A model generated the notes under the pieces. The model did not search any database. It saw only the letters and a list, made by a program, of their open reading frames with translations, and was not told where the DNA came from. From contig CAWKAJ010000001.1 of assembly GCA_963847595.1 (NCBI GenBank), positions 601,258 to 665,257 of the forward strand: a DNA stretch of 64,000 nt. The letters run 5' to 3'. This DNA comes from an uncultured Chloroflexia bacterium. Lineage in GTDB: Bacteria; Chloroflexota; Dehalococcoidia; SZUA-161. The translations under genes were made by a program, and so were the position numbers. Within the stretch, counting starts at the first letter, position 1, and each line of letters starts with the position of its first letter. Below are positions 57,142 through 64,000 of the stretch, in pieces.

Positions 57142-58473
57142 ATGGCTAAGCTACCGCTGGAAGGCGTAAGGGTTGTGGGCATGACCCAGATGTGGGCCGG
57201 CCCCATCGTCGAGATGCACCTGGCCGACTGGGGTGCCGAGATAATCAAGGTCGAGTCCATTCACTATCTCGCCGTCGGCACCAGGGGCCCCGCTCCCAGG
57301 CATCCCAAGTTCGCTGTTGATTTCGTCAAGGGCGGCTATGCCGCCTATCTCAAAGAGGGTTACGACGAGACCAAATGCAGGCCCTGGAATCTGAGCTGCA
57401 TGTTCAATGTGCATGGCCGCAACAAATATTCCTGCACCGTGGACTCCGTCAAGCCCGAGGGCAAGGAAATAATCAAGCGCCTGATACAGGTGAGCGACGT
57501 TTTCATCGAGAACAGCCAGCCCGCCGTCATGGAGGACTTCGGCCTCACCTACGACGTCATCAGCGCCTGGAACCCGAATATCATCATGCTCTCCATGTCC
57601 GGCTTCGGCCAGACCGGCCCCTACAAGTACTTTCGCTCTCTCGGCGCCCATCAGGATGCCTTCCTGGGGCATACCTATCTCAGGGGCTATGCGGACCGGG
57701 ACGTGACGGCAAACTCGGCAATCTACCATTGCGACGAAGCTTCAGGAACAATCGGTGCCTTCATGGTTGTTATGGCGCTGCACCAGCGCAACAAGACAGG
57801 CAAGGGCATGTTCATCGACATGGCGCAGACCGAGGCCACCATGATCCAACTGGGTGAGGCCATCATGGACTACACCATGAACAGTCGCATCACCGAGAGG
57901 ACCGGGAACCGCGACCTCTACGGCGGCATCCAGGGCTGCTACCGCTGCCGCGGCGAGGACAGATGGGTAACCATCGCCATCCGCACCGATGAGGAATGGC
58001 AGGGCTTCTGCCGTGCCCTGGGCAATCCCGGGTGGACCAAGGACGACAGGTTCGCCGATAGCCTGAGCAGGTGGCGTAATCAGGAAGAGTTGGACAAACA
58101 CATCGGCGAATGGACCGGCCGGCATGAAGCCTTCAAGGTCATGAACACCCTGCAGAAAGAAGGCGTAGCTGCCGGCCCGGTAGAGCACCCGGACGATGCC
58201 TACAACGACCCGCAGATGAAAGCGCGGGGCTTTTTCGAAACGGTAACTCAGGCTGAATGCGGGACACACAGATACCCCGGCCTGGCATTCAGGATGTCCA
58301 AGGCGCCCAACCATTTCCGGCTTCCTCCCGTCCGTCTGGGCGAGCACAACGAATACGTCTATAAGAAGCTTCTCGGCTTCTCCGACGCAGAGTATGCTCG
58401 CCTGGAAAAAGAGGGGCACATAGGGATGGACCTGGTGCCCGATATCGTAATCGGCAAATACAAGCCCGAATAA
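57142..58473 (+). CDS. family III CoA-transferase (CaiB/BaiF-like), 443 aa with insertion
   Basis: MAKLPLEGVRVVGMTQMWAGPIVEMHLADWGAEIIKVES. Starts 2 nt after the previous stop. Confidence 0.88.
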   Translation: MAKLPLEGVRVVGMTQMWAGPIVEMHLADWGAEIIKVESIHYLAVGTRGPAPRHPKFAVDFVKGGYAAYLKEGYDETKCRPWNLSCMFNVHGRNKYSCTVDSVKPEGKEIIKRLIQVSDVFIENSQPAVMEDFGLTYDVISAWNPNIIMLSMSGFGQTGPYKYFRSLGAHQDAFLGHTYLRGYADRDVTANSAIYHCDEASGTIGAFMVVMALHQRNKTGKGMFIDMAQTEATMIQLGEAIMDYTMNSRITERTGNRDLYGGIQGCYRCRGEDRWVTIAIRTDEEWQGFCRALGNPGWTKDDRFADSLSRWRNQEELDKHIGEWTGRHEAFKVMNTLQKEGVAAGPVEHPDDAYNDPQMKARGFFETVTQAECGTHRYPGLAFRMSKAPNHFRLPPVRLGEHNEYVYKKLLGFSDAEYARLEKEGHIGMDLVPDIVIGKYKPE

Positions 58474-59546
58474 TGTAGGGGCGACCGGCTGGTCGCCCTC
58501 TCCCAAATCCCCCCTTTTGCAAAGGGGGCAAGGGGGATTTTAGCCTCCTCTCGCCCCTGGAGGGAGAGATAAGAGTGAGAGGGATAATCCGTTCGCCCTG
58601 AATCCTTCTGTGGTAGGACAGGCTCCCCAGCCTGTCCCTGACCTGATCAGGGAGCACGAATCCAGGTGCCCTTCTCTTGTCATTGCGAGTCCTTCTCTGG
58701 AAGGACGAAGCAATCTCACCGCGCCTGTCTTGAGCCCCTGACAACGTACAACATGCCATTCCTGCGCAAGCAGGAATCCAGGTGCCCCCATATGTCATTG
58801 CGAGGAGTCCTTCAAGGAAGGACGACGCGGCAATCTCACCGGCCCCGCGTGACGCCCTAACGGGTAGGTTGGAGCACCCGCTCCAACCAGGTAGGGGCAC
58901 AGTGCACTGTGCCCTTCTGTATGTCATTGCGAGTCCGCCTCGGGCGGACGAAGCAATCTCCTCGTCATCATTCCGTAGGGGCAGACCCATGTGTCTGCCC
59001 GAATCTGAGAATAGGGTCGGTGCTCCGCAACCGACCCTTTCGTAGGGGCAATTCATGAATTGCCCCTTTAATGTCATTCCTGCGCAAGCAGGAATCCAGG
59101 CGCCCCTAATTTTCCCTCCCCTGGAGAGAGAGAAAAGCCTGTCCTGAGCCCCTGACAACGTACAACATATCATTCCTGCCCTGAGCAGGAATCCAGGCGC
59201 GCCACGAACCAATCCCCCCTTTTGCAAACTTGTCCCTAACTCGTTCAGGGAGGGGGCAAGGGGGATTTTAGCCTCCTCTCGCCCCTGGAGGGAGGGGGAT
59301 AATCCGTTCGCCCTTAGCCCTGTCCTGAGCCCCGTCGAAGGACTGTCGAAGGGCTATCCTTAATTGGGTAGCTTGGAGCACCCGCTCCAACCTCGTAGGG
59401 GCACAAGGCATTGTGCCCAAAAACGTAGGGGCGAGGGCCCTCGCCCCGGGATCCGAAGAGCGACTTCTTTACTGCTGATCGGGGTATCGCAGCATGTTAC
59501 TGATCTCCCGTTAAAATAACCTTTCGCATTAAATCCGACTAGTTCG
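58474..59546. repeat. about 1.07 kb ORF-free array of more than 20 short hairpin-repeat modules (H1, H3, H4, H5, H6, H7 families)
   Basis: Examples: gtaggggcGACCGGCTGGTCgccctc, tgtcattgcgag..gcaatctc (x3), cattcctgcgcaagcaggaatccagg (x3), gtaggggcACAGTGCACTGTgccc, gtaggggcAGACCCATGTGTCTgccc, gtaggggcAATTCATGAATTgcccct, ggtaggttggagcacccgctccaacc (x2), cccccctTTTGCAAA...gggggg (x2). The track's 312-aa ORF here is repeat-derived. Confidence 0.85.
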
Positions 59547-60998
59547 CTACGCTGCGCTGCAATATTCGCTATATCTTACCAGGTGAGCAAGTATTTTAGC
59601 TGATTCTTCCGGGTCAGGGTAGAGATTTAGATGGCTCTGCTTCAATGTCAGAGGAACCGTGCCCTGAGTTTCGAAACGCGCTGCTCCAACGGTGAAAAGG
59701 ACGGGCTTACGGTGTTTTGCCATAAGCTCAATAGTCGTCTTTATGTTCTCAAGCTCAGGTTCCTCCATTTGCATTCCCACCTCTTGAGTAGCCTTTTTCA
59801 TCAACGGTGGTGCCCACGTAGCGTAGCCGGAGGTCATCGCGACACCGCCGATAACCAATATGGCGTCGAAATTCTCATCCTCTATCATTGGCCAGAGAGC
59901 CTGGTAGCTGACGAAGTCCCCGGCAGGATCGACTGGGTTTCCTCCGGACCACCTTCGCGACATCATAGACTCCAATTTCTCCATAGTAGCTGCTGACAGA
60001 GGGGGCAGTTCTAAACCCTCTTTCCTCAAGGCGTCTGCGGCGATGACTGCCATCCCACCGCTCATAGACAGCACTCCTACCCTTCTCCCCCGGGGCAGCG
60101 ACTGACCCAGCAAAGCCACAGCGACATCTATCATTTCGTGAAGCTTCTCCACCCGGATCACACCGCACTGCTTGAACGCAGAATCGAGCGTTGCATCCGA
60201 TCCTGCCAGAGCAGAGGAGTGAGACCGCGCTGCCCTGCTCCCGACATCCGTACGCCCCACCTTCATAATGACCATGGGCTTCTTTTTTGTTATTTCCCTT
60301 GCCAGTTCAAGGAAACGCTTGCCTTCTCTGAAGCCTTCTACGTAACCCAGGACAACCTCGGTTTTCTCATCCTGAGCCAGATACTCCAGATAGTCTTCGA
60401 AGCGCAGGTCGCCCTCGTTTCCGCTGCTGATAAACTTGCTAAACCCGACTCCCATCTGCAGCCCGTAATCGAGTATTGCCTGGCCCGAGTTCCCGCTTTG
60501 AGAGATGAGCGCCACATGACCTCTCTCGATAGGGGGCATGAAAGGCACAGTGCAGAATTCTGCGTACGGGTTACAAAACCCCAGGCAGTTCGGACCTATG
60601 AAGCGTATACCGCCTCGCCGGGCGATTTCAACCGCCTCCCGTTGTATTCTTGCGCCTTCTTCACCTGTCTCGGCAAGACCGCCGGAGATAATGACAGCGC
60701 TCTTGACTCCCTTTCTAACGCAGTCTTCCATAGCAGCGGGGACATCCTGAAACGGGACCGTTATCACAGCAAAATCCACTGGCCCGGGCACTTCAACCAC
60801 GCTCATATAAGCTTTCATCCCCATCACTTCGGCTTCCCTGTTGTTGACCGCGTAAATCTCTCGCCCCTGCTTATGGCTCAGTACGCGGCTTAGCACGTTG
60901 TATCCCCACTTACCGAAGTTGTTAGAAGCCCCGATGACCGCCACTGCCCTAGGATTGAACAAATTATCCAACTGCTCTTTTAGACTCATGTTGCTCAT
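59547..60998 (-). CDS. NDP-forming acyl-CoA synthetase alpha-domain protein (CoA-binding + succinyl-CoA-ligase-like domains)
   Basis: NPRAVAVIGASNNFGKWGYNVLSRVL...RFIGPNCLGF pattern of ADP-forming acetyl-CoA synthetase and related enzymes. The start is set at MSNMSLKEQ (RBS GGGAGAGG). The track ORF begins at 61052. Confidence 0.85.
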   Translation of the reverse strand: MSNMSLKEQLDNLFNPRAVAVIGASNNFGKWGYNVLSRVLSHKQGREIYAVNNREAEVMGMKAYMSVVEVPGPVDFAVITVPFQDVPAAMEDCVRKGVKSAVIISGGLAETGEEGARIQREAVEIARRGGIRFIGPNCLGFCNPYAEFCTVPFMPPIERGHVALISQSGNSGQAILDYGLQMGVGFSKFISSGNEGDLRFEDYLEYLAQDEKTEVVLGYVEGFREGKRFLELAREITKKKPMVIMKVGRTDVGSRAARSHSSALAGSDATLDSAFKQCGVIRVEKLHEMIDVAVALLGQSLPRGRRVGVLSMSGGMAVIAADALRKEGLELPPLSAATMEKLESMMSRRWSGGNPVDPAGDFVSYQALWPMIEDENFDAILVIGGVAMTSGYATWAPPLMKKATQEVGMQMEEPELENIKTTIELMAKHRKPVLFTVGAARFETQGTVPLTLKQSHLNLYPDPEESAKILAHLVRYSEYCSAA

Positions 60999-61095
60999 GC
61001 TACCTCTCCCACCCTGGGTTGACGTTTCCCCCGAAAACAGTAGCACCGCCATTTAGAGTCCTCCGCTATAATAAAACGAAAGAGGAGGGCTCATC

Positions 61096-61362
61096 ATGGT
61101 ACGCAAGAGGTACACCGAGGAACAGATCATCGCCGTGCTCAGGGAGGCAGAGGCCGGAGCTAAAGTAACCGATCTCTGCCGTAAATATGGGATGAGCGAT
61201 GCCACCTATTACAACTGGAAAGCCAGGTATGCCGGACTGACCGTCAGTGAACTGAAAAGGTTGAAAGCCTTAGAAGAGGAAAACCGGCGTCTCAAGCAAA
61301 TCGTGGGCGAGCAAGCACTGGACATCAGAGCGCTCAAGGATCTGCTATCAAAAAACTTCTAA
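61096..61362 (+). CDS. IS3-family transposase OrfA (HTH)
   Basis: MVRKRYTEEQIIAVLREAEAGAKVTDLCRKYGMSDATYYNWKARYAG...LKRLKALEEENRRLKQIV (leucine zipper). Slippery heptamer A AAA AAC at 61350-61356 in the OrfA frame. Confidence 0.9.
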   Translation: MVRKRYTEEQIIAVLREAEAGAKVTDLCRKYGMSDATYYNWKARYAGLTVSELKRLKALEEENRRLKQIVGEQALDIRALKDLLSKNF

Positions 61363-62183
61363 AGCCCGGGGCCAAACGCCTGGCAGTTTCCCATGCCAGG
61401 GAGAGTCTTGGGCTGAGCGAAAGGAAAGCCTGCCTGCTGGTCAATATTTCGGCTTCGGTATATCGCTATAGGCCGAAATCGGATAGTGATGTTGCCCTGC
61501 GTCAGCGTTTACGGGAGCTGGCAGGACAGAGAAAACGGTTTGGCAGTCCCCGGCTCCACATTTTGCTGAGAAGGGAGGGGCTGGTGATTAATCACAAGCG
61601 GACAGAGAGGATCTATCATGAAGAGGGATTGGCGCTGAGGAGAAAGAGGCGTAGGAAAGGTGCTGCCGGGTTGAGGGTAATCATGCCATCACCGCAGAGG
61701 CCAAACCAGCGCTGGTCCATGGATTTTGTTACTGACAGCATCGTCACCGGGCGGCGTTTTCGCGCCCTTGCCATCGTGGATGACTACTCCCGGGAATGTC
61801 CCGTCATCGAGGTGGACACTTCACTGGGTGGTGCCAGAGTGGTGAGTGTGCTGGAAAGGCTAGCTGAAACGAGGGGATTGCCTAACGTAATTACCACGGA
61901 CAATGGGCCGGAATTCGCAGGGCGGGCACTCGATGAATGGGCATACTGTAAGGGCGTGAAGCTGAACTTCATCCGGCCGGGAAAGCCAATTGAGAATGCC
62001 TATGCCGAGAGCTTCATCGGCAGGCTCAGGGACGAGTGTTTGAACGAGAACTGGTTTATGAACCTGAAGCATGCCCGGGACATCATCGAAGACTGGAGGA
62101 GGGATTACAACGAGGTCAGGCCACACAGCTCATTGCACGGTAGGGCTCCCATGGAGTATGCTGAAACAGCGGCTGGGCTCTAA
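61353..62183 (+). CDS. IS3-family transposase OrfB (integrase/DDE rve core), expressed as an OrfAB fusion by -1 frameshift
   Basis: The -1 frame reads KLLKPGAKRLAVSHARESLGLSERKACLLVNISASVYRYRPK... It continues into the listed ORF (61563-62183), which has DDE-integrase hallmarks (WSMDFVTD, ITTDNGPEF, ENAYAESFIGRLRDECLN). No internal stops are seen. Confidence 0.85.
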   Translation, partial: KLLKPGAKRLAVSHARESLGLSERKACLLVNISASVYRYRPKSDSDVALRQRLRELAGQRKRFGSPRLHILLRREGLVINHKRTERIYHEEGLALRRKRRRKGAAGLRVIMPSPQRPNQRWSMDFVTDSIVTGRRFRALAIVDDYSRECPVIEVDTSLGGARVVSVLERLAETRGLPNVITTDNGPEFAGRALDEWAYCKGVKLNFIRPGKPIENAYAESFIGRLRDECLNENWFMNLKHARDIIEDWRRDYNEVRPHSSLHGRAPMEYAETAAGL

Positions 62184-62212
62184 TAGCCGGTGATACTAAT
62201 ACCGGGGGAAGG

Positions 62213-63106
62213 TCATACTTCCTGATAACTATCTAGATAATCGATGAATTGTATCTCATATTTTGGTGGTGGGTCATTTTGTCTCAATCTAGTGGTGGTA
62301 TGTAGAAGAGAAAGTACACTAAAATCATTGGTATTTAAGGAGCAACCGATTATCCGTAATATATCACATTTCAGGCAAGATCTTGCTTTCCCCCAGATAG
62401 CGTTAAACGGGTAATAGTCATTCCTTTTGATTACACCTGGAGGAACCCAGAGTATATGATCTCTATCGTCGTTCATATTGATAAGATTTTCATTAATTCT
62501 TACTGGATTTGTATTTTCCCAATTAAAAGAACCGTGTAATTTACATAGGGCTGGAATACCTGTATTATTCGTAATTTCACCGTTTTCTGGTATTACTTCA
62601 AACGGGATATTTAGGCTCGCGTAATTCTCAAACATAGCCTTTTCTATAAAGTTGTCGTAGTTTAAAGTAAGAATTGCACACAATTCTTCGTTAAAATCCG
62701 GTAACGAATACATATCAAGCAGTGCAGTTATTAGGTTTGGAGATTGTTTTTCATTCCTTAGCCCATTTTTAATCCTATTATTTATCGATTTTCTAAAGTA
62801 ATTTCGTAATTTGTTAGTACGCTCCTTGTCTTTAAAAGTGCCGGAGGATTCATAAAGGGTTATTATCTCTTCAATATCAACGTTTCGGTGTATTTTTCGT
62901 TCATCTAACCATGTAATATTGCTCAAGTCTCTCAATGAAACATCTTCTTCATTTTTACAAGCTAATAAGACATCTTCAGCTATATCGGCCATTAATATTC
63001 CATCATTTGTTGGATCGAGATGTTTAATGACAGCATGACTCGCACCAGCGCCCAAGAGATATACAACTTTCTTCTTTTCGTCAGGCATCTTTTCTCCAAA
63101 AAACAA
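62213..63106 (-). CDS. SIR2_2-family (ThsA/DSR-like sirtuin) domain protein, AT-rich
   Basis: VVYLLGAGASHA (G-A-G-x-S), ILTLNYDNFIE (xNYD..hE) and LCKLHGS (K-h-H-G) match the three signature motifs of defence-type SIR2 domains. The stop codon (TGA, 62215..62213) is formed by the first bases of the IS3 right terminus. Confidence 0.75.
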   Translation of the reverse strand: MFFGEKMPDEKKKVVYLLGAGASHAVIKHLDPTNDGILMADIAEDVLLACKNEEDVSLRDLSNITWLDERKIHRNVDIEEIITLYESSGTFKDKERTNKLRNYFRKSINNRIKNGLRNEKQSPNLITALLDMYSLPDFNEELCAILTLNYDNFIEKAMFENYASLNIPFEVIPENGEITNNTGIPALCKLHGSFNWENTNPVRINENLINMNDDRDHILWVPPGVIKRNDYYPFNAIWGKARSCLKCDILRIIGCSLNTNDFSVLSLLHTTTRLRQNDPPPKYEIQFIDYLDSYQEV

Positions 63107-64000
63107 TGCTTTCTCGGGACGGACTTCTCATATAGTCTCTCATTTGTTGAGAGCTATTTCCCCTATATCTTACAGCCCATATATTTTCCGGACTTAAGCC
63201 CACTTGTAATCCAATTTCAGATAATATTTCATCGACAAGGATGTCAACTCCTGCAAATCGAACATTACTAATGACCATAGCCACTTTCCCGCCATTTCTT
63301 AGGCACCTGTGTATCTCAGAAAGAGATAAATACATATCTTCAAAATAACCTTCTAACATCTTGATCACTTGCGGATTATTAGCACCATTCCTTTTGACTT
63401 GGGCGATTAAGGACTCAAGTGTATCTGGTATTTGATAGCCGATAGCTTCATATTTTTCCCTTGCCTCGACATGTGACCGGATCGTTTCATAACGTATCCT
63501 TTTAAGTTGATCGTTATCTGATATAAAATCGAACATCATCTCTAGAGAATATATTCTAGTATAATCATGCCGGTTGGGGTATGGAGGAGAAGTGATAACA
63601 GCATCATATTTTCTTTGAGTAGGAAGTTTTCTCGCATCGCCTATCTTGGCCAATGAACTTACATTTTTGCCTTTCTCGTATTTGAATTCAAGTACATCTT
63701 GAATCATGGACTCTACTTTGTTTAAAAACTCACCCATTATCTCATTTGGGTTCACCTGACGATTTATTATGCGAAGAAACCCCCCATCCTTCGAGGTATT
63801 GCTTGCAGACTCAATAATACTTAGGAATCCAAGGTTGAAAAAAGCCCTAATCTTAGGATTTTCAATATTGTCTTCGATTCTAGATTTTATCGACAACAAT
63901 TCTTTTGCTACGTCTGTGCTAAAAGCTTTTTTAACTATAGGGATATTAGGTAGAACTCTATTATCATTACTTATTACATCTTTTGTTTTTAGCACTTCAA
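63081..64000 (-). CDS. DNA amino-methyltransferase (N4-cytosine/N6-adenine type, SPPY motif IV); N-terminus lies beyond the window end
   Basis: DAVITSPPYPNRHDY is a classic motif IV. CLRNGGKVAMVIS is downstream. The reading frame is still open at 64000, so the ORF is 5'-truncated by the window. Its 3' end overlaps the SIR2 gene start by 26 nt. Confidence 0.7.
   Translation of the reverse strand, partial: EVLKTKDVISNDNRVLPNIPIVKKAFSTDVAKELLSIKSRIEDNIENPKIRAFFNLGFLSIIESASNTSKDGGFLRIINRQVNPNEIMGEFLNKVESMIQDVLEFKYEKGKNVSSLAKIGDARKLPTQRKYDAVITSPPYPNRHDYTRIYSLEMMFDFISDNDQLKRIRYETIRSHVEAREKYEAIGYQIPDTLESLIAQVKRNGANNPQVIKMLEGYFEDMYLSLSEIHRCLRNGGKVAMVISNVRFAGVDILVDEILSEIGLQVGLSPENIWAVRYRGNSSQQMRDYMRSPSRESIVFWRKDA

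What the first reader, a model, noticed from the sequence alone, without database searches (positions are those of the whole stretch)
61020..62215. Intact IS3 element wedged between the acyl-CoA synthetase promoter region and the SIR2 gene; the SIR2 stop codon is supplied by the IS terminus
OrfA, the A-AAA-AAC slippery site and an uninterrupted OrfB suggest an active element. Its left end lies only about 22 bp upstream of the start codon of the minus-strand NDP-forming acyl-CoA synthetase (start at 60998), separating that gene from whatever promoter it had. Its right terminus (..ggtca, 62215) provides the TGA that ends the SIR2 ORF. The SIR2 gene may therefore have been 3'-truncated by the insertion, losing a C-terminal sensor or effector domain as found in ThsA or DSR proteins.
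Basis: seen in the sequence. Interest (0 to 1): 0.5.

Follow-up and report, generated by a model that had tools for sequence, protein, structure and literature searches.

The report
IS element at a deletion junction
An intact jumping gene of the IS3 family sits at a rearrangement scar that cut off the end of a SIR2 anti-phage gene, removed that gene's obligatory partner, and replaced the promoter region of a neighbouring metabolic gene; this is an ordinary kind of event, though the damaged defence operon may be of an undescribed type.

Summary
Window 61020-62215 is a complete 1196-bp IS3-family element of IS407-group type. It has OrfA, a conserved A_AAA_AAC -1 slippery site, an uninterrupted OrfB and imperfect terminal inverted repeats (TGAC...GTCA). 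More than 40 related copies in Chloroflexota MAGs lose homology at exactly these two coordinates.

The SIR2 gene is truncated. All homologues are 360-386 aa against 291 aa here, and its TGA is the last three bases of the IS.

It is not a simple insertion:
- The family makes 4-bp target duplications (21 of 42 related sites), but this copy is flanked by GGGT and TACT.
- The SIR2 3' end is absent from the other side of the IS and from the rest of the window.
- The DUF262/ParB-like gene that follows SIR2 in 61 of 61 informative loci is missing.
- G+C falls from 54% to 36% at the IS end.

The best reading is an IS-mediated deletion or IS-IS recombination junction. It leaves a methyltransferase plus a crippled SIR2. 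It also replaces a conserved promoter-like motif upstream of the acyl-CoA synthetase, keeping only 21 bp with the ribosome-binding site. A chimeric MAG assembly across the IS repeat cannot be excluded. The event is ordinary. The MTase-SIR2-DUF262 operon is an interesting side lead.

The parts
61020..62215 (+). Complete IS3-family (IS407-group-like) insertion sequence, 1196 bp
   Evidence: Pfam and NCBIfam matches. Homology to more than 40 related copies ends exactly at these coordinates. The closest copy, L002, is 95% identical in DNA.
61020..61061 (+). Left terminal inverted repeat (TGACGTTTCCCCCGAAAACAG...)
   Evidence: The family consensus is TGACCTTACCCCCGAAAACAG.
62175..62215 (+). Right terminal inverted repeat (...CCGGGGGAAGGTCA). 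Its last three bases are the SIR2 stop codon on the minus strand.
61096..61362 (+). orfA, 88 aa, helix-turn-helix DNA-binding protein
   Evidence: HTH_Tnp_1 at E 3.5e-23.
61350..61356 (+). A_AAA_AAC programmed -1 frameshift heptamer
   Evidence: It lies in the OrfA frame and a -1 shift enters the OrfB frame. It is found in frame in 33 of 36 distinct related copies.
61363..61414 (+). Predicted stem-loop starting 7 nt after the slippery site; a possible frameshift stimulator
   Evidence: The MFE and centroid folds agree. The z-score is only -1.4, so the support is weak.
61350..62183 (+). orfB frame (277 codons from the slip site): HTH_21 plus a DDE integrase core, with D at 61722, D at 61899 and E at 62007 by motif
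   Evidence: rve at 6e-22 and rve_3 at 2e-28. The motifs WSMDF, TTDNG and YAESF were located. There is no start codon of its own before 61563.
61016..61019 (.). Left flanking 4-mer GGGT, which does not match the right flank
   Evidence: 21 of 42 related sites carry a perfect 4-bp duplication.
62216..62219 (.). Right flanking 4-mer TACT, which does not match the left flank
62213..63088 (-). Truncated SIR2_2 gene (291 aa). It retains the invariant N143 and H185 motifs but lacks about 90 C-terminal residues.
   Evidence: Pfam SIR2_2. Homologues are 360-386 aa. Alignment A1. The AF2 model of the full-length relative places the break inside helix 290-299.
63081..64000 (-). 3' part of an N6/N4 DNA methyltransferase gene (418 aa in full, running off the window). 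It overlaps the SIR2 start by 8 bp.
   Evidence: L001 is identical to the window over 1796 bp. PADLOC MTase_II at 7.6e-85.
59547..60998 (-). NDP-forming acyl-CoA synthetase gene (483 aa), intact
   Evidence: Pfam CoA_binding_2 and Succ_CoA_lig. Homologues are 84-95% identical and many of the closest, including the top hit, are also 483 aa.
60999..61019 (-). Remaining 21 bp of the synthetase leader, with the GGGAGAGG ribosome-binding site. Homology to relatives stops at the IS.
   Evidence: Alignments A2 and A3.

Best explanation
A structurally intact IS3-family element of the IS407 type marks a rearrangement junction. It is not a simple insertion.

Proposed history. Originally a low-G+C defence cassette, methyltransferase - SIR2 - DUF262/ParB-like NTPase, lay somewhere to the right of the acyl-CoA synthetase. 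One IS copy inserted into the SIR2 gene at a TACT target, after codon 291. Then one of two things happened. Either a second copy inserted 21 bp upstream of the synthetase start (GGGT target) and homologous recombination between the two directly oriented copies deleted everything in between. Or a single copy promoted an adjacent deletion.

Result. One hybrid IS copy without a target duplication is now flanked on one side by the synthetase, which keeps only its ribosome-binding site. On the other side is SIR2 lacking its last ~90 residues, terminated by the TGA of the IS end. The SIR2 tail, the DUF262 partner and the synthetase's native promoter region are gone. The methyltransferase is left as an orphan next to a probably non-functional SIR2.

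Consequence for the synthetase. All three genes are on the minus strand and no terminator-like site lies between them. The synthetase may therefore now depend on read-through from the MTase-SIR2 operon or on a cryptic antisense promoter in the IS.

Shown: the IS anatomy and boundaries, the truncation, the missing partner, the missing duplication, the G+C break and the missing conserved upstream motif.

Inferred: the order of events, one-copy versus two-copy mechanism, and how the synthetase is expressed.
For: - IS identity and boundaries.
- The family makes 4-bp duplications: 21 of 42 distinct related sites are perfect, P about 1e-39 by chance. The window copy has GGGT and TACT.
- IS407A is reported to make 4-bp duplications and to mediate deletions and rearrangements by recombination in Burkholderia mallei (PMC2877748).
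- In a related Dehalococcoidia MAG, two copies without duplications carry reciprocal flanks (accc/agct and agct/accc). This is the signature of IS-IS recombination. The expected number of such double matches by chance is 0.003.
- SIR2 truncation: the 120 listed homologues that are not themselves fragments are 355-386 aa, and 85-95 conserved residues are missing here.
- No SIR2 tail anywhere in the window (tblastn).
- A DUF262 gene follows SIR2 directly in 61 of 61 loci with room. It is absent here.
- No DUF262 relative from the same 836-kb contig appears among the 120 best hits. The six closest hits after the query's own protein sit on contigs of the same length as the known SIR2 partners or come from other metagenome sources.
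- G+C is 53.7% to the left, 54.3% in the IS and 35.8% to the right.
- The cassette has lower G+C than its flanks in 11 of 11 other loci.
- A conserved GTGGTATGCTTTGTAGAAAT motif lies 45-60 bp upstream of the synthetase start in relatives whose upstream genes differ. It is replaced by the IS in the window.
- There are zero terminator-like sites in 60900-62400.
Against: - The rest of the genome could not be read, since the 836-kb contig was not retrievable. I therefore could not look for a second IS copy, for a reciprocal TACT-IS-GGGT partner, or for a displaced SIR2 tail and DUF262 gene. An inversion or translocation rather than a deletion remains possible.
- The source is a MAG, and a mis-join across a repeated IS would produce the same picture.
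- IS3-family elements move by copy-out-paste-in, which does not itself make adjacent deletions, so the one-copy variant is less natural.
- No promoter for the synthetase was demonstrated.
Confidence: 0.7

Rival explanations
1. Assembly artefact. The MAG contig was joined wrongly across two different copies of a repeated IS, so the synthetase flank and the SIR2 flank are not really adjacent. In that case each locus would carry its own normal insertion.
For: - There is no target duplication, the flanks are unrelated and G+C jumps by 18 points exactly at the IS end.
- An independent k-mer assembly of the same run breaks 8 bp into the IS (L001). That is expected if the IS is repeated in the sample.
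- Related MAGs carry up to 15 or more copies.
Against: - An 836-kb contig suggests long-read or well-supported assembly, which would span a 1.2-kb repeat.
- Low G+C is a property of this cassette wherever it is found (11 of 11 loci).
- Even in this case SIR2 is still interrupted by an IS at codon 291, so the truncation claim survives. Only the adjacency to the synthetase would fall.
- No other IS copy is present in the 64-kb window.
Confidence: 0.12
2. Simple insertion. The IS jumped into a pre-existing junction where an already short SIR2 gene abutted the synthetase leader, and the 4-bp duplication was later lost by mutation.
For: - The IS is intact and its closest relative, L002, shows a clean 4-bp duplication, so the family does insert simply.
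- Half of the related copies also lack duplications.
Against: - GGGT and TACT share no position, so four independent substitutions would be needed.
- The SIR2 reading frame is open right up to the IS and is stopped only by the IS's own TGA.
- No homologue ends near this position.
- The conserved partner gene is absent.
Confidence: 0.05
3. The IS sits at the natural edge of a mobile island or composite transposon that brought in the MTase-SIR2 genes. The truncation happened in a previous host, and the IS was the vehicle rather than the cause of a local deletion.
For: - The cassette is low in G+C and clearly horizontally mobile.
- The region upstream of the synthetase is variable in relatives and includes phage-like genes in L167.
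- The IS lies exactly at the composition boundary.
Against: - The IS G+C (54.3%) matches the host side, not the island.
- Its relatives are resident in Dehalococcoidia genomes.
- The other end of the putative island lies beyond the window and could not be examined.
- This model still requires an IS-associated truncation of SIR2.
Confidence: 0.1

Closest known systems
IS407 / IS407A (IS3 family, IS407 group) of Burkholderia
   Same: - About 1.2 kb long.
- An 88-aa OrfA, with OrfB expressed by a -1 frameshift.
- DDE transposase with rve and rve_3 domains.
- TGAC...GTCA tips.
- 4-bp target duplications (PMC2877748).
- Copies that have lost their duplications through inter-copy recombination, causing deletions.
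- The best plasmid-borne protein matches are Burkholderia and Ralstonia IS3-family transposases.
   Different: - Only about 55% amino-acid identity to those proteobacterial elements.
- The hosts are Chloroflexota/Dehalococcoidia.
- I could not compare with the ISfinder reference sequence, so the subgroup assignment rests on shared features and on my recollection of the group's definition.
SIR2 of the SIR2-HerA (Nezha) anti-phage system
   Same: It is the closest solved fold to the full-length relative of the truncated protein (Foldseek E 5e-9, TM about 0.45-0.53). It is a defence-type SIR2 that works with a separately encoded NTPase partner. The invariant N and H catalytic motifs are present.
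   Different: Sequence identity is 14-18%. The partner here is a ParB-like DUF262 protein, not a HerA ATPase, and a DNA methyltransferase is usually attached. NADase activity has not been shown.
Menshen (NsnA-NsnB-NsnC) and other DUF262 systems (GmrSD, SspE, Dazbog, PD-T4-2)
   Same: The partner gene lost from the window is NsnA-like in relatives (PADLOC NsnA at 1e-14 to 5e-23). In these systems ParB-DUF262 proteins are thought to sense DNA or DNA modification (PMC12065111, PMC10952713).
   Different: There is no NsnB ATPase or NsnC effector, no DUF1524 nuclease, and no match to the Dazbog models. The effector is SIR2 and the gene order is MTase-SIR2-DUF262.
Orphan methyltransferases left by decay of restriction-modification systems
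   Same: A Type-II-like MTase (PADLOC MTase_II at 7.6e-85) remains intact while the associated, potentially toxic effector genes are truncated or deleted.
   Different: The lost effector is a SIR2-DUF262 pair, not a restriction endonuclease. Whether the MTase protects against that pair is an inference.

Membership tests
IS3 family insertion sequence | Two overlapping reading frames, orfA (HTH) and orfB (DDE integrase core), in relative phase -1 | tested here: met
   OrfA matches HTH_Tnp_1. OrfB matches HTH_21, rve and rve_3. NCBIfam transpos_IS3 scores 231 bits against a cut-off of 160. The frames were verified.
IS3 family insertion sequence | Slippery heptamer for programmed -1 frameshifting in the overlap | tested here: met
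   A_AAA_AAC at 61350-61356, in the correct phase. It is found in frame in 33 of 36 distinct related copies. Frameshifting itself was not assayed.
IS3 family insertion sequence | Imperfect terminal inverted repeats ending 5'-TG...CA-3' | tested here: met
   TGACG...GGTCA. The 36-nt arms are 75% complementary.
IS3 family insertion sequence | Short target-site duplication flanking the copy | tested here: not met
   The window copy has GGGT and TACT. The family as a whole meets this feature: 21 of 42 related sites have perfect 4-bp duplications. The failure is a property of this copy's history, not of the element.
IS407 group of the IS3 family | About 1.1-1.3 kb long, 4-bp duplications, OrfB with an rve_3-type C-terminus | tested here: met
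   Length is 1196 bp. Relatives have 4-bp duplications. rve_3 matches at 1.8e-28. IS407A makes 4-bp duplications according to PMC2877748.
IS407 group of the IS3 family | Clusters with the ISfinder IS407-group reference transposases | not testable with these tools
   No ISfinder library is available. Only indirect evidence exists: the best plasmid hits are Burkholderia and Ralstonia IS3-family transposases at about 55% identity.
Defence-type SIR2 (PF13289 SIR2_2) NADase | SIR2_2 domain with conserved N and H catalytic residues | tested here: met
   SIR2_2 matches at 6.5e-10. The TxNYD and KLHGS motifs are invariant in A1 and A4 and are retained in the truncated protein. The fold match is to SIR2-HerA, SPARSA, DSR2 and ThsA.
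Defence-type SIR2 (PF13289 SIR2_2) NADase | NAD+ hydrolysis on activation | not testable with these tools
   This needs a biochemical assay.
Thoeris ThsA / DSR1-DSR2 | SIR2 fused to a large sensor domain (SLOG in ThsA; a long C-terminal region in DSR proteins) | tested here: not met
   Full-length homologues are only 360-386 aa and model as one compact globule (pTM 0.91). They have no SLOG or other Pfam domain. PADLOC gives only weak generic SIR2 hits.
Menshen | NsnA plus an NsnB ABC-ATPase plus an NsnC effector | tested here: not met
   Only an NsnA-like gene is present in relatives, flanked by SIR2 and an MTase.
Type II restriction-modification system | MTase paired with a restriction endonuclease | tested here: inconclusive
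   The MTase matches the PADLOC MTase_II model strongly. The DUF262 partner gives only weak REase_II hits (2e-4 to 7e-7). No nuclease domain was detected by Pfam.

The most novel reading that the evidence does not exclude
The operon damaged here, DNA methyltransferase - SIR2 - ParB-like DUF262 NTPase, is a widespread and so far undescribed methylation-linked abortive-infection system. In this reading the DUF262 protein reads the modification state of DNA and switches on the SIR2 NADase, while the methyltransferase marks self DNA. The window would then show a natural 'disarmed' state in which an IS-mediated deletion removed the sensor and the SIR2 tail but kept the methyltransferase.
Probability: 0.4. 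Interest if true: 0.6.

Novelty: new member of a known kind. Interest (0 to 1): 0.3.

Why it matters
For genome annotation:
- The SIR2 ORF should be flagged as a truncated pseudogene-like remnant.
- The methyltransferase should be flagged as an orphan.
- The synthetase should be flagged as a gene whose expression now depends on foreign upstream DNA.

For mobile-element biology, this adds a well-defined IS407-type element with many copies in Dehalococcoidia MAGs. It also provides clear signatures of IS-IS recombination in that class.

The larger value is indirect. Tracing the truncation exposed an invariant SIR2-DUF262 gene pair, usually accompanied by a methyltransferase. I could not find it described in the literature I searched or in PADLOC, and it would be straightforward to test experimentally.

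Tried and rejected
- Other IS copies or a SIR2 tail inside the window. A pattern search with 3 mismatches, blastn and tblastn found none.
- Retrieving the 836-kb source contig to read beyond position 64000 and to find other IS copies. Exact-protein look-ups for SIR2, OrfA, the synthetase and the CoA-transferase returned only short Logan contigs or nothing. The GTDB representative collection does not hold this genome.
- An outward sigma-70-like promoter in the IS left end. There were no hits on the minus strand inside the IS. By eye, TATTAT at 61066-61071 lacks a credible -35. I rejected this as evidence.
- The frameshift-stimulating stem-loop. It is predicted, but its z-score is only -1.4, so I treat it as weak.
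- Dazbog, PD-T4-2, Thoeris, DSR and Menshen as the identity of the cassette. PADLOC gives only generic SIR2 hits and NsnA-like or weak PD-T4-2_A hits. I rejected all of them as memberships.
- Metis (m6dAMP-sensing NAD+ depletion, bioRxiv 10.1101/2025.11.05.686725). I read it as a possible match for 'methylase plus NAD+ depletion'. Its proteins are different (metallophosphatase and HAD), so it is not the same system.
- NCBIfam has no model for the SIR2 or DUF262 proteins.
- An empty site in a closely related strain. The nearest synthetase loci are 84-88% identical at protein level and have different upstream genes. They gave the promoter comparison but not a true empty site.
Full report

Yes. 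Window 61020-62215 is a 1196-bp insertion sequence.

- OrfA (61096-61362, 88 aa) matches the transposase helix-turn-helix family HTH_Tnp_1 at E 3.5e-23.
- The second frame carries HTH_21, rve and rve_3 domains. It scores 231 bits against NCBI's IS3-family transposase model, whose cut-off is 160.
- The second frame is open from the slippery site to 62183 but has no ATG, GTG or TTG before 61563. It can therefore only be expressed well as an OrfAB fusion.
- The heptamer A_AAA_AAC (61350-61356) is in the OrfA phase, and a -1 slip enters the OrfB frame (read directly).
- Of 36 distinct related copies, 33 have the same heptamer in frame, and 32 of those have OrfB open for 271-278 codons.
- A stem-loop is predicted 7 nt downstream, but it is not significantly better than shuffles.
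- The DDE motifs WSMDF, TTDNG and YAESF are present.
- The ends are imperfect inverted repeats. The 36-nt arms are 75% complementary, and with a one-base indel they run to TGAC...GTCA at the tips.

The boundaries do not depend on that inverted-repeat alignment. blastn of the element plus 100 bp on each side against 80 related loci from Chloroflexota/Dehalococcoidia MAGs stops at exactly 61020 and 62215 in more than 40 copies. The closest copy, L002, is 95% identical in DNA.

**2. Is SIR2 truncated?**

Yes.

- The ORF at 62213-63088 (minus strand, 291 aa) is a SIR2_2 protein.
- Among the 120 best homologues, those that are not themselves fragments are 355-386 aa and the closest thirteen are 375-385 aa.
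- In alignment A1 they all continue for about 85-95 residues beyond the window protein's last residues (...IDYLDSYQEV). That stretch includes nearly invariant N, F, W and L positions.
- The last native codon is GTA (62216-62218).
- An AlphaFold model of the closest full-length relative (pLDDT 89, pTM 0.91) is a single compact globule. The break falls inside helix 290-299 and removes one strand and five helices.
- The nearest solved folds are the SIR2 subunit of SIR2-HerA/Nezha, then SPARSA SIR2, DSR2 and ThsA.
- The catalytic-type motifs (TxNYD, KLHGS) are retained in the stump.

What was lost is therefore an integral C-terminal part of a small protein. It is not a ThsA-like or DSR-like sensor domain.

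**3. What else was lost?**

Looking up the homologues' contigs showed a conserved operon: N6/N4 DNA methyltransferase (about 404-418 aa), then SIR2, then a DUF262/GmrSD_N protein (378-429 aa). The genes have overlapping or nearly abutting ends.

Across 80 further loci from metagenomes:
- A DUF262 gene follows SIR2 directly in 61 of 61 loci that have at least 300 bp downstream.
- An adjacent methyltransferase precedes SIR2 in 34 of 51 loci with room upstream.

In the window the methyltransferase is present. It overlaps the SIR2 start by 8 bp, is 418 aa in the identical Logan contig L001, and matches PADLOC MTase_II at 7.6e-85. The DUF262 gene is absent.

In PADLOC the DUF262 protein is NsnA-like. 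In Menshen and related systems such ParB-DUF262 proteins are considered DNA or DNA-modification sensors (PMC12065111, PMC10952713).

**4. Simple insertion or rearrangement?**

Several independent observations argue against a simple insertion.

- (a) The family makes 4-bp target duplications. 21 of 42 distinct related sites have perfect ones, P about 1e-39 by chance. This is as reported for IS407A (PMC2877748). The window copy is flanked by GGGT and TACT.
- (b) If the IS had simply landed in SIR2, the SIR2 tail and the DUF262 gene would lie to its left. Instead the left flank is the start of the acyl-CoA synthetase, 21 bp away. tblastn finds no SIR2 tail anywhere in the 64 kb.
- (c) G+C is 53.7% to the left of the IS, 54.3% in the IS and 35.8% to its right. 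The same cassette is lower in G+C than its flanks in 11 of 11 other loci, so it is a mobile, foreign cassette.
- (d) No DUF262 relative from the same 836-kb contig appears among the best 120 homologues of the expected partner.

The gene orientations fit a deletion between two directly oriented IS copies. One copy would have been in SIR2 and the other just upstream of the synthetase. An adjacent deletion promoted by one copy also fits.

Recombination between copies of this IS does occur in the group. Half of the related copies lack duplications. In one MAG, two such copies carry reciprocal flanks (agct-IS-accc and accc-IS-agct), where 0.003 such double matches are expected by chance.

**5. The synthetase side.**

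- The gene (59547-60998, minus strand, 483 aa) is intact. Its closest homologues are 84-95% identical, and many of them, including the top hit, are the same length.
- In four related loci the upstream genes differ. In one of them they are phage-like.
- All of these loci nevertheless share a motif, GTGGTATGCTTTGTAGAAAT, 45-60 bp upstream of the start codon. It looks like an extended -10 promoter element (TGnTATGCT).
- In the window, similarity to these relatives stops about 21 bp upstream of the ATG, just after the GGGAGAGG ribosome-binding site, and IS sequence begins.

- The consensus scan found no sigma-70-like site pointing outward in the IS left end, and no terminator-like site between SIR2 and the synthetase.
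- The methyltransferase, SIR2 and synthetase are all on the minus strand, so read-through across the IS (antisense to the transposase) is a plausible source of expression. This is inference only.

**6. Rivals.**

The main rival is a chimeric MAG join across a repeated IS. It would mimic the missing duplication and the unrelated flanks. An independent k-mer assembly of the same run ends 8 bp into the IS. I could not obtain the rest of the contig or the reads. Even under this rival, SIR2 is still interrupted at codon 291 by the IS.

A simple insertion followed by decay of the duplication is very unlikely. An IS-bounded island brought in already truncated is possible, but it is not favoured by the host-like G+C of the IS.

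**7. Comparison with known things, and novelty.**

The element is a new member of the IS3 family with the hallmarks of the IS407 group. Its transposase is about 55% identical to Burkholderia and Ralstonia elements. The subgroup could not be tested against ISfinder references.

IS-mediated truncation of a defence gene and the displacement of a promoter are common events, so the finding itself is ordinary.

The by-product is less ordinary. PADLOC does not model the MTase-SIR2-DUF262 operon as a system. Four full-text searches found no paper describing it. A mechanism in which the methyltransferase marks self DNA and the DUF262 NTPase gates a SIR2 NADase is a reasonable hypothesis by analogy with SIR2-HerA, GmrSD/SspE and Dazbog, but it is untested.

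**8. Verdict.**

- Observation: confirmed.
- Best explanation: an IS-associated deletion or recombination junction, confidence about 0.7.
- Interest: 0.3.
- Novelty: new member of a known kind.

Noticed in passing
window 58500-59450: The roughly 1-kb intergenic stretch downstream of the synthetase is a mosaic of short G+C-rich repeat modules, partly palindromic. There are 7 direct-repeat families of 23-53 nt, including a perfect 44-nt pair at 58523 and 59251. It looks like REP/MITE-type repeats and creates spurious long ORFs, for example 58289-59227 on the minus strand.
   Followed up: partly
window 60999-61052 (minus strand): The synthetase reading frame stays open for 18 codons into the IS left end, up to an ATG at 61052. 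That ATG is preceded by GGAGGA at a ribosome-binding distance, so an IS-borne start could give an N-terminally extended protein. This is probably chance.
   Followed up: no
L082-L165 (for example L082 1514-5193, L083 4759-8215, L085 4794-8396): A conserved operon of DNA methyltransferase, SIR2_2 and DUF262/ParB-like protein. The SIR2-DUF262 pair is found in 61 of 61 informative loci and an adjacent MTase in 34 of 51. The operon is always lower in G+C than its flanks. It is found in Chloroflexota, KSB1 and Nitrospirota-type MAGs. I found it described neither in PADLOC nor in the searched literature.
   Followed up: partly
L013 and L017 (contigs CAXXFI010000002.1 and CAXXFI010000001.1 of one Dehalococcoidia MAG): Two copies of the related IS lack target duplications but carry reciprocal flanking 4-mers (accc/agct and agct/accc). 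This is the footprint of recombination between IS copies in a genome that holds 15 or more copies.
   Followed up: partly
L167 1090-6526: In one close relative the region upstream of the orthologous synthetase carries phage-like genes (portal, Mor-like regulator, EVE-domain protein). This suggests that the flank is a variable or integration-prone spot in this lineage.
   Followed up: no
window 57142-58473 and L166: A run of family III CoA-transferase genes (CoA_transf_3) lies near the synthetase. This is consistent with an acyl-CoA metabolism cluster and is ordinary.
   Followed up: no
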